The translations under genes and the position numbers were made by a program. Under the pieces are notes generated by a model that saw only the letters and a list, made by a program, of their open reading frames with translations, did not search any database and was not told where the DNA came from. This document shows positions 4,830 through 28,900 of a stretch of 64,000 nucleotides of DNA, piece by piece (within the stretch, counting starts at the first letter, position 1; each line of letters begins with the position of its first letter). Origin of the DNA: the human T2T-CHM13v2.0 reference genome, Homo sapiens. Location: NCBI RefSeq assembly GCF_009914755.1, contig NC_060933.1. The stretch is one strand, 5' to 3'.

Positions 4830-5009
4830 TATAATTGGTCCTCCATATCCATAGGCTTTGCATCCATAGATTTACCCAACCATAGATGGAAACTCACAGA
4901 AATGGAGGGTGGACTGGACTAATTTTCTATCTGAGGTTAGTTGACTTGGAGGATAGGGAACCCTAGGAATCTGAGGGGCCAACTGTAAGGATACGGAGGG
5001 CCAACTGTA
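4830..5009. mobile_element. MER2-like TcMar-Tigger non-autonomous element
   Basis: Degenerate left TIR ta-taattggtcctccatatcc and right TIR ggatacggagggccaactg-ta. Confidence 0.7.
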
Positions 5010-5102
5010 TTCTAAGGGACAGCTAAAGCTGAATATCTTGTAGGCCTTGATTAGGAACCATGTATTTCATTATAAGCACAATGGGAAGTCATCATGAATT
5101 TA

Positions 5103-5466
5103 AGTATGAGTCCATTTTCATGCTGCTGATAAAGACATACCCAAGACTGGGCAATTTACAAAAGAAAGAGGTTTATTGGATTTACAGTTCCACATGGCTG
5201 GTGAGGCCTCACAATTATGTCAGACGGCAAGGAGGAGCAAGTCACATCTTATGTGGATGGCAGCAGGCAAAAACAGCTTGTGCAGAGAAACTCTCATTTT
5301 TTAAAAGCCATCAAATCTTGTGAGACCAATTCACTATCATGAGAACAGCATGGGAAAGACCTGCTTCCATGATTCAATCATCTCCTACTGGGTCCCTCAC
5401 AACACGTGGGAATTATGGGAGCTACAAGATGAGATTTGGGTGGGGACACAGAGCCAAACCATATCA
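5103..5466 (-). mobile_element. THE1 (THE1A/B-like) MaLR LTR
   Basis: Close match to the THE1 LTR reverse complement: tccattttcatgctgctgataaagacataccc...gatttgggtggggacacagagccaaaccatatca. Confidence 0.93.
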
Positions 5467-5866
5467 TTTCGCCCCTGGCCCCTCCCAAATCTCATCTTGT
5501 AAGCACATTTCAAAACCATTCATGCCTTCCCAACAGTCCCCCAAAGTCTCAACTCATTTCAGCATTAACTCAAAAGTCCACAGTCCAAAGTCTCATCTGA
5601 GACAAGGCAAGTCCCTTCCACCTTTGAGCCTGTAAAATCAAAAGCAAGTTAGTTACTTCCTAGATACAATAGGGGCACAGGCACTGGTTAAATACAGCCA
5701 TTCCAAATGGGAGAAATTGGCCAAAACAAAGGGGATACAGGCCCCATGCAAGTCTGAAATCCGGCAGAATAGTCAAATCTTAAATCTCCAAAATGATCTC
5801 CTTTGACTCCATATCTCACATCTGGGTTATGCTGATACAAGATGTAGGTTCCCATAGTCTTGGGCA
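5467..5866 (-). mobile_element. THE1-int 3' fragment (5'-truncated provirus)
   Basis: PPT complement cccctggcccctccc adjacent to the LTR; internal sequence ends abruptly at ~5866. Confidence 0.9.
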
Positions 5867-7042
5867 TTCATTATAAGCACAATGGGAAGTCATGAGTTGA
5901 AGCAGAGAAGAGGCATGATTTGATGTACATGTTTATAAAGTCATTCTGGCAGCATGTGAGAATGGATTGGGAAGGCCTGACGGGGGATTAAGAGCAAGAC
6001 AGAATCTGAGAGACCAATTAGGAAACTATTGAATTATAGGTCAGAGTTGTTAGTAACTTATAGCAAGGTAGAGATGGAAAGAAATACATGGATTCAAAAG
6101 CTACATTGAGAGAAAAATCAATAAGCTTTGATCATAGGTTAAACATTGAAATGAGGGGAAACAAAGGGAGAAATCCAAGGATTACAAGAGATACTTCTAA
6201 TCCTTCTCTGGAAGCAAATTTAAATCTACCCTGCAGATAGGCACAAAGGTTACTAGCTTATTTTCTTTTCTGTCATGGTCTTCTTTTCTCTTTCTTCTTT
6301 GTTTTGTACTGTTTGTTTGTTTGTTTTGTTTTTGAAGTAAGAGCTCCTCTTAATACCGATTACTATTTTAAGGGATTACTAAACTCTTACAACCTAATTG
6401 GGCATAGGCCTTTAAGGTCAAACTCAATCTCCTTTGCCCACATCAGAAGGCTACATGATATTTTAGGGATATGTTAGCTTAGCTCAAATGCTTTTCATTG
6501 TCAGTTACAACCAAGAGTTGAAATTTTAGAAGGGATAGTCTCTTAAGAGAGTTTATCAGTCTTGGAAGTTTTCTTCTGAAACTACCCAGCAGATGTTTCC
6601 AATGCCCTGAGGAAAAAGGCTTTAAGAAAGAGCTGGTGATGAATAGTGCAAGAGCAGCAGAGGAGGTTGAGAAAGAGGAGCCCACCAGAGTTACAGAAAA
6701 AGAGCTTTGCAAAACAGGAATAAGACACTCAGGTCTCTACCAGCTGCTCTCAAAAACCCACCTCACATTAAAAATCAAGGTCATGGACAAATTGGCACAA
6801 GATGGACCAAGTGGTCATGGTGGCCTCTAAGTTCACTCAGGACATTTGGAGTCACATTTGGTAACAGGAGTAGACAAAGAGGCTACCTGTCAGGAATGTG
6901 GAGGTTCTGACCTCACATGAAAGCTAGAGCTGCTCCCTGAAAGGCCAGCCCCTCCTCAGCCAAGAATCTCACTTCTACTCTCTCCTTAGCTGCAAATACC
7001 ATACTGGAATGTCTGACCCTGAGCAGAAGGAGCCAGCTTTAA

Positions 7043-23610: not shown

Positions 23611-25273
23611 TTGTTGACATTTAAAGGAAGCTTCTCCAGCCCTCTGTGGCTAAACTCCCTTCTCCCAACCATTCTTCTGGCCAGGTTCCTGGCCCCTCAC
23701 TCCTTCAAGGAACATTTGCTGACCTGAACAAGTTGGCATTTCAAACCGTATCTTCCTCCTTCTTCCAGGCCATCAGCTTCTTGCATAAAGCATCCTTTGG
23801 GATGGTCCTTTGGGACCCCGCCAGCTCTACGCATGCAGGTGTACTTAACACAGACTAATGAATAGCTTTTCTTTCTTCACACTCCCTCCCCCAAATACAG
23901 ATCACACGCCTCTCCTGTCAGGTTGATATGGCAAAGCAAATTACTAAAAAATGTTGACAATGAGTGCTTATTCAATTTTATTGCTTTTTCCTGCTTTTGC
24001 TGAATCAAAGCAGGTAGTAAACAGTCTTGCCTGACCACTATCAAGCACAGCAAGAAGGATGACATTTCCCTACCTGTGGGCATGAAAGCTAAATCCACAA
24101 GCAGACCCCGGGGGCTGCCTGGAGGTAAGTGAGGACTGAATGACATACAGGTTCACCTTAGAAGCCCTGGGCTGGCAGTTGTTCCTGCTCAAATTCTTTC
24201 TTTTCTATCAGTCCTTCCCACCACCCTCATGTTACCAGTAAAGGAAAACAGACAGTACAAAGCAAGAGGAGCTATCAGAGTCATGGAGTAGGTCAGGGCA
24301 CTTCAAGTTCATAGAATCTTTACACGAAAGGATTATTTTAGAGCTCATCTACCCACTCATATTGCAGCAGAAAGAATTGAAGCTCTGGGGGATAAATGAC
24401 TTATTCAAGGTCACAGTGAGCCAAAGCTGAGATTTCCAGATCCTAACCAGCGTTAAATTTCTAAGCTGCATTTTAGCATTCCACTTTTCCTCATTTTGCC
24501 TATTAAATCCTCCAAGGCCTAGTTCAGGTTCTTTCTGGTCCAGAAAGTGCCCCCAGTCTTCTCCAATTCTACAGAGATGCCTTCCTTCCCTGATGCTACA
24601 GAATGTATCATCTCCATCACTCATTGGCACCAATAAATAAAATGCCCTTTGACATCCAAGAGTCATGAAACTTTGAGCTGGAAGGGTCATTGGATGTCAT
24701 TTAACTCATATTTCAGTTTCAAACTTACATAGGTCAGCTCACCAAGGTAGCTGAAGTTCCTTTGGAGAAAAGCTCTTGTCTAACAATCTTGATGATTGTT
24801 ATCCCTCTCTATTCAGCACCATAACCTGCATAAACTTCATATTTGGTTCAGAATACCAGTTTAGCAACCTACAAGAATGTAGGTGTCTGGCAGACCAGGA
24901 TTCCAGTTCCAGGTCTGCCATTGATTCCTGGCATGACTTTGGATTACGCGTTTGACCTCTCTAAAAATACTTCCTCATCTGGCAAATGGGAGTAACAGTA
25001 GAGCCCACTCCATATATGTTATGTAAATTAATAATACAAGGCAGGAAGAAAGCTCTTAGCATCACATTAAGGATTCAATAACTATTTGCTATTCTTTGAT
25101 CACTTTCAGGGAGATTCACTTTGTCAATGTCATTGACTTATAATCAGATTCTAAAGAAGAATCCCAGGCAAACAAACTTTGGAGATAGTTCACAACTGAA
25201 GGAAACTTCCATTTACTTAAGGCAGGCTGAAATTTGATAGGGAGACTAGAAATACAAAAAGGAAAGGATCTGC

Positions 25274-28323: not shown

Positions 28324-28765
28324 CCAGGGTGAAGAAGGGCAGCTCGGTGTTGTCCAGGTCGTCCTGCACCGCGATGCGCCCCGGCAGCTCGTTACGCACA
28401 AAGAGCAGGAGGCGCGACTCGGCGGCGGTGCCGGCAGAGCCAGGAGAGCCCGGGGACGCGGCGGCGGCGGCGGCTCCGGCCCCGGTCCCAGCCCCGGCCC
28501 CGGCGCGGGCGCCGCTCCAGCCGATGTCGCTCTCCCGCAGGGCGGGCAGTGTGGACACCGTGACGGTCTTCAGCCGGCACGGGCTGTCGGGCTCCCGCGA
28601 GGCAGCGGCGGTGGCGCCGGCCAGCAGCGGCGGCGGCGGCAGCAGGAGCAGGAACAGCAGCAGCAGCGGCAGCAGTGGCGGCGGCCCCGGGTGGAAGCAG
28701 AGCCTCGGCCGCCCCCGGAGCCCCGAGCCGGGGCCGGGGCTGAGCCGGGCGCCGGCGGCGGCCAT
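28324..28765 (-). CDS. ASTN2: Astrotactin-2 coding exon 1 (signal peptide + N-terminal region, 147 codons + 1 nt)
   Basis: Translation MAAAGARLSPGPGSGLRGRPRLCFHPGPPPLLPLLLLFLLLLPPPPLLAGATAAASREPDSPCRLKTVTVSTLPALRESD...RLLLFVRNELPGRIAVQDDLDNTELPFFTL recognised as the ASTN2 N-terminus; ATG at 28765 in strong Kozak context (cccgccATGG); donor CTGG|GTAAGG with GT at 28323-28322. Confidence 0.97.
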
Positions 28766-28900
28766 GGCGGGAGGGGCTGCGGTGCTGCGGGCGGCGGCGG
28801 CGGTGGCGGCGGTGGCGAAGGAGGAAGAGGAGGCAGCTGCGGAGACGGCGGACGCCGAAGCGAACCAGGACGCCCGAGCTAAGGAGCGGAGAGAGCCGCT
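28766..28900 (-). other. ASTN2: ASTN2 5' UTR (TSS approximate)
   Basis: GC-rich, ATG-free sequence directly upstream of the start codon; exact TSS cannot be read from sequence. Confidence 0.6.
28791..28817. repeat. Interrupted (GCG)n repeat in the 5' UTR
   Basis: gcggcggcggcggtggcggcggtggcg. Confidence 0.85.

What the first reader, a model, noticed from the sequence alone, without database searches (positions are those of the whole stretch)
5140..5656. Sense-oriented THE1 fragment forms an intact gene-trap terminal exon in frame with ASTN2 exon 1
Seen: on the ASTN2 strand the THE1-int remnant reads gtaaCTAACttgcttttgattttacAG|gctcaaagg (branch CTAAC 5652-5648, AG 5631-5630), followed by the LTR poly(A) signal AATAAA at 5177-5172. 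Splicing the phase-1 exon-1 donor (28324) to 5629 gives ...PFFTL-GSKVEGTCLVSDETLDCGLLS-stop (TAA 5567-5565), a 168-aa product with the signal peptide but none of the downstream TM segments. Established: MaLR elements carry an internal acceptor and LTR poly(A) site, and sense LTRs are generally depleted from introns. Inference: as a last exon it would escape EJC-dependent NMD, so it could give a primate-specific short secreted ASTN2 N-terminal isoform or attenuate the very long full-length transcript. The truncation happens to keep exactly this cassette.
Basis: partly seen in the sequence, partly recalled or inferred. Interest (0 to 1): 0.8.

Follow-up and report, generated by a model that had tools for sequence, protein, structure and literature searches.

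The report
Old retroelement relic in ASTN2 intron
A 760-base remnant of an ancient THE1 retroelement sits in the first intron of ASTN2 and carries that family's usual splice-acceptor and poly(A) signals, so it could in principle end the transcript early, but nothing available here shows that it does.

Summary
The sequence facts are right. On the ASTN2 strand there is CTAAC (5652-5648), a pyrimidine tract, AG (5631-5630) and AATAAA (5177-5172). Joining exon 1 (28324) to 5629 gives 168 aa ending at TAA 5567-5565.

These signals are family heirlooms, not a feature of this copy. The exact 28-nt acceptor string occurs 892 times in the genome. Acceptor plus hexamer survive in 18 of 29 relatives. Van de Lagemaat et al. 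2006 already list this acceptor (THE1 consensus 1775) as used in mRNAs at 8 loci, and they modelled acceptor 1774 to poly(A) 2224.

"In frame" means nothing here: 38% of intronic AGs would add 21 or more codons. The element is larger than reported, 5104-5866, and is flanked by a unique 27-nt duplication.

None of the eight RefSeq ASTN2 transcripts has an exon here (hub table), and no paper links ASTN2 to it.

Most likely it is a tolerated relic that is silent or used at trace level. RNA evidence could not be examined. Interest is low.

The parts
28324..28765 (-). ASTN2 exon-1 coding part (147 codons + 1 base) with phase-1 donor G|GTAAGG at 28324/28323
   Evidence: hub annotation table
5867..5893 (.). 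Upstream copy of a perfect 27-nt direct repeat (target-site duplication) flanking the element
   Evidence: The 27-mer occurs only at these two places in the genome at up to 1 mismatch.
5467..5866 (-). 5'-truncated THE1 internal remnant, about 400 nt
   Evidence: 85-88% identity to other copies from 5866 on. 27 of 29 relatives continue at least 1200 nt further upstream; the window copy does not.
5648..5652 (-). Branch-site-like CTAAC, branch A 19 nt before the AG
   Evidence: kept in 18 of 29 relatives
5630..5647 (-). Pyrimidine tract and AG (ttgcttttgattttacAG); the would-be exon starts at 5629. Same site as THE1 consensus acceptor 1774/1775.
   Evidence: ACAG|G in 22 of 29 relatives and YAG|G in 25 of 29. 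892 exact 28-mers in the genome. Used in mRNAs at 8 loci.
5565..5629 (-). Would-be coding extension (2 bases + 20 codons + TAA at 5567-5565)
   Evidence: 23 of 29 relatives have TAG at +6..+8 where this copy has AAG.
5104..5466 (-). Complete 3' LTR, 363 nt, starting TG
   Evidence: The same stretch matches a second place upstream in other copies; where that upstream LTR is held whole (L007, L008, L028) the match starts at window 5466-5469.
5180..5187 (-). Decayed LTR donor CT|GTAAAT, 8 nt before the hexamer; relatives mostly have GTAAGT or GTGAGT
   Evidence: 20 of 29 relatives have GTAAGT/GTGAGT and 1 of 29 has GTAAAT. It fits donor 2215 of the published model.
5172..5177 (-). AATAAA poly(A) hexamer. 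CA at 5149-5148 lies 24 nt downstream, and a G/T-rich stretch follows at 5147-5128.
   Evidence: It ranks 4th of 29 intronic hexamers by a crude downstream G+T measure. Relatives: AATAAA 10, ATTAAA 10, other 7, unaligned 2, of 29.
5135..5143 (-). Donor-like TGG|GTATGT just past the likely cleavage site; could define an internal 489-nt exon or bind U1 next to the PAS
   Evidence: 6 of 9 matches to CAG|GTAAGT. 19 of 29 relatives keep GGTATGT and 10 of 29 have the same nine bases.
5066..5092 (.). Downstream copy of the 27-nt direct repeat; 11 nt (5093-5103) lie between it and the LTR end

Best explanation
This is a 5'-truncated THE1 (MaLR) retroelement: about 400 nt of internal sequence plus a complete 3' LTR, at 5866-5104 in the same orientation as ASTN2, 22.7 kb into intron 1. 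It carries the standard signals of its family. These are the strong internal acceptor (consensus position 1774/1775), the LTR poly(A) signal about 450 nt downstream, and LTR donor-like sites. Together they form a potential decoy exon. If the acceptor were used, the exon could end in one of three ways: by cleavage near 5148 (a terminal exon giving the 168-aa product), or at the donor-like sites 5361 or 5141 (an internal exon with a premature stop, then NMD).

The most likely state is a tolerated relic that is skipped, or used only at trace level. A copy that ended many transcripts would have been exposed to the selection that depletes sense LTR elements from introns.

Shown: the anatomy, the family-wide inheritance of the signals, and the published use of the same acceptor elsewhere. 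Inferred: that this copy is largely silent.
For: Anatomy and family:
- Element boundaries, LTR/internal structure and copy number.
- The acceptor string has 892 exact genomic copies against 0 for the control.
- 18 of 29 relatives keep both YAG|G and AATAAA/ATTAAA, so this copy is not special.
- The acceptor ranks only 29th of 2074 AGs in this stretch of intron by my crude score, and 16 of the top 29 have a hexamer within 700 nt.

Lack of support for use:
- None of the 8 RefSeq (RS_2025_08) ASTN2 transcripts has an exon in 5104-5866 (hub table).
- No paper holds ASTN2 with THE1 in a relevant sense, with 'intronic polyadenylation' (0 papers), with a relevant 'alternative polyadenylation', or with a relevant 'cryptic exon'.
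- ASTN2 is absent from the 4 supplementary files of a long-read TE-chimera atlas.

Base rates are low:
- 110 internal MaLR-derived termination sites in eight cell types (PMC3517506 Table 1).
- 292 MaLR-associated poly(A) sites (PMC2553571 Table 1).
- 8 loci using acceptor 1775 among 9,019 THE1 copies with internal sequence (PMC1794541).

Selection and model:
- Sense LTR elements are two- to three-fold depleted in genes, so survivors are expected to be the harmless ones (inference).
- In the published simulation, acceptor 1774 led to poly(A) in 69 of 855 events.
Against: - The acceptor is proven competent elsewhere: 8 of the 9 mRNA-supported sense THE1-int acceptors are this very site (P 8.3e-13 for use of predicted sites).
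- In this copy it is fully intact, with CTAAC and no AG between branch site and AG.
- The hexamer is the canonical AATAAA with CA and a G/T-rich downstream stretch, and ranks 4th of 29 in the intron.
- The strongest competing LTR donor (GTAAGT just before the PAS; 397 of 855 events in the model) has decayed to GTAAAT here. That should shift any use towards polyadenylation.
- Sense LTR termination sites, where they are used, are used strongly.
- The site lies early in a very long gene, where a decoy is transcribed long before exon 2.
- Absence from RefSeq does not exclude a minor or tissue-restricted isoform, and I could examine no RNA-seq, long-read or 3'-end data.
Confidence: 0.72

Rival explanations
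1. The cassette is a working intronic-polyadenylation terminal exon. Exon 1 splices to 5629, and cleavage near 5148 follows AATAAA. This would give an NMD-immune mRNA for a 168-aa secreted N-terminal ASTN2 fragment, or would throttle the full-length transcript, in primates only.
For: - Intact branch site, tract, AG and canonical hexamer with downstream element.
- The same acceptor is used at 8 other loci.
- The acceptor-1774 to poly(A)-2224 event is explicit in the published model, with spacing 450 against 453 here.
- The competing GTAAGT donor is lost in this copy.
- No donor-like GT with 6 or more of 9 matches lies between 5629 and 5362.
- LTR-derived termination sites are strong when used.
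- The product keeps the signal peptide and has no later hydrophobic segment.
Against: - No exon here in any of the 8 RefSeq transcripts (hub table), and no literature.
- The cassette is equally intact in 18 of 29 relatives and in hundreds of genomic copies, most of which cannot be functional exons.
- Only 69 of 855 model events from this acceptor ended in poly(A).
- A donor-like TGG|GTATGT sits 8 nt past the likely cleavage site, where U1 binding could suppress cleavage (the mechanism is from established knowledge of U1-mediated PAS suppression).
- The 21-residue tail is random repeat sequence, and the frame is no evidence.
Confidence: 0.12
2. It is an occasional internal 'poison' exon. The acceptor at 5629 pairs with the donor-like site at 5141 (489 nt) or 5361 (269 nt). 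The TAA at 5567-5565 then lies more than 50 nt before the next junction, so the transcript is degraded by NMD. The result is a small, invisible drain on ASTN2 output.
For: - In the 2006 mRNA survey, the 8 uses of this acceptor came with 8 internal donor records (consensus 1808-1898) at 8 loci. For 6 loci the donor is in the same mRNA, and for a seventh in a second mRNA.
- 786 of 855 simulated events from acceptor 1774 were internal exons.
- The donor-like sites CAG|GTCTTT (5361) and TGG|GTATGT (5141) are present.
Against: - Both donors match only 6 of 9 consensus positions, and there are 103 such sites in the 28.3 kb.
- The donors used in the published cases (consensus 1808-1898) have no GT in this copy.
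- A 489-nt internal exon is long.
- There is no annotation.
Confidence: 0.08
3. The LTR acts as an alternative promoter or enhancer for ASTN2 or a non-coding RNA, as THE1 LTRs do elsewhere (THE1B-CSF1R).
For: - THE1B LTR promoter use is documented.
- The LTR is complete and in sense orientation.
Against: - No transcript starts here in the hub's table.
- No TATAAA in the expected LTR region of this copy or of any of the 29 relatives.
- A transcript starting here would lack exon 1 and its signal peptide.
- Nothing was tested about chromatin or transcription starts.
Confidence: 0.04

Closest known systems
Sense-oriented ERV/LTR 'splice acceptor plus poly(A) or donor' disruption cassette (van de Lagemaat, Medstrand & Mager 2006, PMC1794541)
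   Same: It is the same element family, the same acceptor (consensus 1774/1775) and the same LTR poly(A) signal (2224), with spacing 450 in the consensus and 453 here. The paper's supplement lists this acceptor as used in mRNAs at 8 human loci and simulates its outcomes.
   Different: - The paper used a full-length consensus; this copy is 5'-truncated.
- This copy lacks the earlier acceptors of the 5' LTR and internal region.
- It has lost the GTAAGT donor before the PAS.
- It has AATAAA.
- ASTN2 is not among the paper's listed THE1 loci.
TE-derived intragenic transcription termination sites (Conley & Jordan 2012, PMC3517506; Lee, Ji & Tian 2008, PMC2553571)
   Same: It is a sense LTR/MaLR element inside a gene, carrying its own poly(A) signal in the LTR.
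   Different: Those sites were defined by transcript-end data. Here there is only sequence potential.
TE-driven soluble receptor isoforms by intronic polyadenylation (e.g. sPD-L1 through an L2a PAS, as tabulated in PMC13709765)
   Same: The proposed outcome is the same: the transmembrane part is lost, a short novel C-terminal tail is added, and the product is secreted.
   Different: sPD-L1 has transcript, protein and deletion evidence. The ASTN2 product is hypothetical and would keep only 96 mature ASTN2 residues (52-147) of low complexity.

Membership tests
THE1 / MaLR LTR retroelement | LTR - internal - LTR architecture of about 2.2-2.3 kb in full-length relatives | tested here: met
   27 of 29 relatives continue at least 1200 nt upstream. 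The LTR part (5466-5104) matches a second place upstream. In L007, L008 and L028 the LTR starts are about 1.83-1.89 kb apart.
THE1 / MaLR LTR retroelement | High copy number, with copies diverged as expected for an element of about 55 My | tested here: met
   8126 first-look candidates; 39 scored places at 85-88% identity. PMC1794541 Table 1 gives 37k THE1 copies, 9,019 with internal sequence, and 55 My.
THE1 / MaLR LTR retroelement | Named THE1-int by a curated repeat library | tested here: inconclusive
   No Dfam/Repbase library is on hand. Indirect support: sequences labelled 'MaLR, THE1-int' in PMC1794541 file S2 contain the window's acceptor string, with the 28-mer exact in row 33. The LTR name also rests on my recall.
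THE1 / MaLR LTR retroelement | Short (about 5 bp) target-site duplication from integrase-mediated insertion (feature recalled, not from a call) | tested here: not met
   The copy is flanked by a perfect 27-nt duplication of unique sequence, with 11 nt between the LTR end and the repeat, and it is 5'-truncated. It is a THE1-derived sequence, but this copy probably did not arrive by a normal integration.
Intronic-polyadenylation terminal exon | Acceptor with branch site and pyrimidine tract | tested here: met
   (sequence level only; no MaxEnt or SpliceAI available).
Intronic-polyadenylation terminal exon | Poly(A) hexamer with cleavage site and downstream G/U-rich element | tested here: met
   (sequence level only).
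Intronic-polyadenylation terminal exon | Transcripts that use the junction and end at the site | tested here: not met
   No such exon among the 8 RefSeq ASTN2 transcripts (hub table), and no report in print. RNA-seq, long-read and 3'-end data are not testable with these tools.
Intronic-polyadenylation terminal exon | Conservation of the signals beyond neutral expectation in species that share the insertion | not testable with these tools
   Only the human assembly is held (header).

The most novel reading that the evidence does not exclude
In some human tissue (cerebellum, fetal brain or testis), exon 1 of ASTN2 splices to the THE1 acceptor at 5629 and the transcript is cleaved after the LTR AATAAA. 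Decay of the LTR's GTAAGT donor to GTAAAT in this copy would favour that outcome. The result would be an anthropoid-specific short mRNA that either encodes a secreted 168-aa N-terminal fragment or measurably throttles output of the roughly 1-Mb full-length gene.
Probability: 0.08. Interest if true: 0.5.

Novelty: already known. Interest (0 to 1): 0.2.

Why it matters
If the cassette were used, a neurodevelopmental risk gene would have a primate-only early exit. That could set its dosage or yield a small secreted peptide, and it would be a clean case of a retroelement gene-trap kept in a constrained gene.

As it stands, the value of the check is mostly negative. The 'cassette' is the standard equipment of hundreds of THE1 copies and was described down to the same acceptor and poly(A) positions in 2006. 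The open frame is meaningless. No transcript evidence exists in the sources I could reach.

The practical use is as a flagged site. A variant that strengthens it, or loss of U1 or NMD control, could make it a pathogenic decoy exon in ASTN2.

Tried and rejected
How many comparable cassettes the gene tolerates is therefore unknown.
- Earlier findings of this scan were not open.
- Lionel et al. 2014 on ASTN2 isoforms (PMC3990173) is not held. What it says about isoforms could not be checked.
- Literature searches that found nothing relevant:
  - ASTN2 + THE1: 4 papers, 3 listed; judged from the listing only to be unrelated.
  - ASTN2 + 'intronic polyadenylation': 0 papers.
  - ASTN2 + 'alternative polyadenylation': 4 papers; by their titles and abstracts two concern radiation-induced transcripts and two are reviews.
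  - ASTN2 + 'cryptic exon': 3 papers; two were read by passages and concern the ASTN2-PAPPA antisense chimera at exon 22.
  - THE1 + 'polyadenylation signal' + truncated + intron: 12 papers; the two I opened gave no THE1-terminated gene isoform.
  - ASTN2 in the 4 held supplementary files of PMC12999487: 0 occurrences.
- I checked a second 5'-truncated copy (L012) for a long flanking duplication and saw none that was convincing.
- MaxEnt, SpliceAI and poly(A)-site predictors were not available. My acceptor score uses rough frequencies recalled from memory, and my downstream-element measure is ad hoc. Both serve only for ranking within this intron.
- Recursive splice site: rejected, because the AG is followed by GCTCAA, not GT.
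- L1-mediated retrocopy as the origin of the long duplication: rejected, because there is no poly(A) tail and the LTR runs to its natural end.

Full report
THE OBSERVATION. On the minus (ASTN2) strand the window reads gtaaCTAACttgcttttgattttacAG|gctcaaagg. CTAAC is at 5652-5648 and AG at 5631-5630, with no other AG between them. AATAAA lies at 5177-5172 and is the only AATAAA or ATTAAA in 5000-5700 on that strand. CA at 5149-5148 lies 24 nt downstream, and a G/T-rich stretch follows. Exon 1 ends ACC CTG G|GTAAGG at 28324. Its coding part is 442 nt, so the donor is phase 1. Joining 28324 to 5629 gives a 168-residue product ending GSKVEGTCLVSDETLDCGLLS, with TAA at 5567-5565.

WHAT THE ELEMENT IS. 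A search of the window's own assembly with 5100-5870 found 8126 first-look candidates. The 40 that were scored gave 39 other places at 85-88% identity, and 35 of these cover the query from base 5-11 to base 762-770, that is window 5866 to about 5104. The repeat is therefore 5104-5866. That is longer than the finding (5140-5656) and longer than NCBI's mask (5106-5675).

27 of the 29 relatives fetched with flanks are homologous to each other for up to 1200 nt further upstream. The window copy (and L012) is not, so the window copy is 5'-truncated. The part 5466-5104 matches a second place upstream in the relatives. Where that upstream copy is held whole (L007, L008, L028), the match starts at window 5466-5469 and the two copies start about 1.83-1.89 kb apart. 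So relatives have an LTR-internal-LTR structure of about 2.2 kb, and the window holds about 400 nt of internal sequence plus a complete 363-nt 3' LTR.

It is supported by supplementary file 2 of van de Lagemaat et al. 2006, where sequences labelled 'MaLR, THE1-int' carry the window's acceptor string. Copy number and age in that paper's Table 1 also fit: 37k copies, 9,019 with internal sequence, 55 My.

THE SIGNALS ARE INHERITED. The 28-nt string from CTAAC through AG|GCTCA occurs 892 times in the genome (453 forward, 439 reverse), against 0 for the reversed control. The tallies among the 29 relatives are:

| Feature | Relatives (of 29) |
|---|---|
| CTAAC kept | 18 |
| ACAG\|G kept | 22 |
| YAG\|G kept | 25 |
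| Hexamer AATAAA | 10 |
| Hexamer ATTAAA | 10 |
| Other hexamer | 7 |
| Hexamer region unaligned | 2 |
| Both YAG\|G and a canonical hexamer | 18 |

These 29 are the best-scoring full-length matches and are not a random sample. The cassette is the family's standard equipment, not a peculiarity that 'the truncation happens to keep'. The fragment begins 237 nt upstream of the acceptor.

IT IS IN PRINT AS A CLASS. I read the following parts of van de Lagemaat, Medstrand & Mager 2006 (PMC1794541): passages, sections 7 and 10, Table 1, supplementary file 2 in part, and the THE1A sheet of file 1. The paper argues that sense ERVs are selected against in introns because an internal acceptor, followed by a donor or a poly(A) signal, disrupts the host transcript.

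Its file 2 lists mRNA-supported splice sites inside sense THE1-int. There are 9 acceptor records, and 8 of them, from 8 loci, lie at consensus position 1775. The printed 100-nt sequences break exactly after TTTTACAG. The summary gives 176 AG motifs, 8 predicted strong acceptors, 1 cryptic and 8 strong sites used, and P = 8.3e-13. At seven of those eight loci the file also lists a donor inside the internal region, at consensus 1808-1898, which makes short internal exons. For one locus the donor comes from a second mRNA.

Its file 1 simulates 10,000 transcriptions through a sense full-length THE1A consensus. The totals are 4634 splice events, 1551 poly(A) events and 894 short internal exons. The outcomes from acceptor 1774 are listed below.

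| End point | Event type | Instances |
|---|---|---|
| 1899 | splice | 20 |
| 2026 | splice | 132 |
| 2156 | splice | 180 |
| 2215 | splice | 397 |
| 2253 | splice | 57 |
| 2224 | poly(A) | 69 |

That is 855 events, of which 8% end in poly(A). The 1774-to-2224 spacing of 450 matches the window's 453.

WHAT IS PARTICULAR TO THIS COPY.
(a) The donor at consensus 2215 fits the GTAAGT/GTGAGT that 20 of 29 relatives carry 8 nt before the hexamer. The window has GTAAAT, like 1 of 29 relatives. This removes the main competitor and possible U1-mediated suppressor of the poly(A) site.
(b) The hexamer is the stronger variant, AATAAA.
(c) 23 of 29 relatives have TAG at +6..+8, which would stop a phase-1 reading after Gly-Ser. 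The window has AAG, so the frame runs on for 21 residues. This has no evident meaning.
(d) The places where the published cases had acquired donors have no GT here. The only donor-like sites with 6 or more of 9 consensus matches before 5100 are CAG|GTCTTT (exon end 5361) and TGG|GTATGT (exon end 5141, 8 nt past the likely cleavage site). There are 103 such sites in the 28.3 kb of intron.

IS IT MORE THAN CHANCE? The motifs are not chance, because they are inherited. As a candidate exon in this intron, however, it is not outstanding by crude measures. My ad hoc acceptor score (rough recalled frequencies, not MaxEnt) ranks it 29th of 2074 AGs, and 16 of the top 29 have AATAAA or ATTAAA within 700 nt. 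The hexamer ranks 4th of 29 by downstream G+T content. 'In frame with exon 1' carries no information. The other two phases stop after 19 and 11 codons. Of 2072 intronic AGs, 38.4% would add 21 or more codons behind a phase-1 donor, and the median is 14.

IS IT USED? I could examine no RNA data. The hub's table (RefSeq RS_2025_08) lists 8 ASTN2 transcripts, and their only exon in the window is 28324-28884. No paper in the library connects ASTN2 with this element, and ASTN2 is absent from the four held supplementary files of a recent long-read TE-chimera study.

Base rates are low:
- 110 internal MaLR termination sites in eight cell types (PMC3517506 Table 1, passages read).
- 292 MaLR-associated poly(A) sites (PMC2553571 Table 1, passages read).
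- 8 loci using acceptor 1775 with 2006-era mRNAs.

On the other side, sense LTR termination sites are strongly used where they exist. Because sense LTR elements are depleted two- to three-fold from genes, a copy that has survived some tens of millions of years in intron 1 of a constrained gene is more likely to be a harmless one (inference).

THE PRODUCT. The 168-aa product would keep the hydrophobic signal sequence. In mouse Astn2 the signal peptide is residues 1-51 and is cleaved, followed by a lumenal N-terminal domain and two transmembrane helices (bioRxiv 493858, passages read). Human exon 1 ends at residue 147, and I see no further hydrophobic segment in the translation. A stop in a last exon escapes EJC-dependent NMD (established knowledge). 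If a downstream donor were used instead, the TAA would lie more than 50 nt before the junction and the transcript should be degraded.

VERDICT. The best reading (0.72) is a tolerated, 5'-truncated sense THE1 relic whose published family signals make it a potential decoy exon that is silent or used at trace level. The rivals are a real intronic-polyadenylation isoform (0.12), an NMD-targeted internal exon (0.08) and LTR promoter or enhancer activity (0.04). The kind is already known, and the ASTN2 instance is unreported and unproven. Interest is 0.2.

SIDE OBSERVATION. The fragment is flanked by a perfect 27-nt direct repeat (5066-5092 and 5867-5893) that occurs nowhere else in the genome at up to 1 mismatch. 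Eleven bases (5093-5103) lie between the LTR end and the downstream repeat copy. They resemble the bases upstream of the other repeat copy (9 of 11 by my eye). This long duplication, the 5' truncation, the natural LTR end and the lack of a poly(A) tail do not fit a normal LTR integration, for which I recall about 5 bp. They do not fit an L1-mediated retrocopy either. Capture of a broken element DNA at a staggered break is my guess, and it is untested.

Noticed in passing
window 5066-5092 and 5867-5893 (plus 5093-5103): A perfect 27-nt direct repeat of unique sequence flanks the 5'-truncated THE1 fragment and occurs only at these two places in the genome. 11 extra bases lie between the LTR end and the downstream copy. 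This is far longer than the short duplication expected for an LTR integration, and there is no poly(A) tail, so the fragment probably arrived by an unusual route.
   Followed up: partly
window 5676-5866: NCBI's repeat mask stops at 5675, but homology to other THE1 copies runs on to 5866 at 85-88% identity. About 190 nt of the element are unmasked.
   Followed up: yes
window 5429-5501: The internal/LTR junction matches itself on the opposite strand (80% over 79 nt), and relatives show the same. This inverted repeat would form a hairpin inside the would-be exon.
   Followed up: no
window 25270, 14805, 14213, 16671, 16780, 21074 (minus strand): Other acceptor-like AGs in the same intron score as high or higher by my crude measure, and most have a hexamer nearby. 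Examples: a 19-T tract plus CAG at 25270; 14805 with ATTAAA 187 nt on; 14213 with AATAAA 193 nt on. None is annotated as an exon.
   Followed up: no
L012 (G000:C23:29298202-29298937): This is another THE1 copy truncated at nearly the same internal point (query base 31), with no homology upstream. No convincing long flanking duplication was seen.
   Followed up: partly
window 5290-5312 and the aligned region of L002-L030: This copy and all 29 close relatives have a TTTTAAAAA-type stretch and no TATAAA at the place where I expected the LTR's TATA box from memory. They may belong to a THE1 subfamily other than the one I recalled.
   Followed up: no
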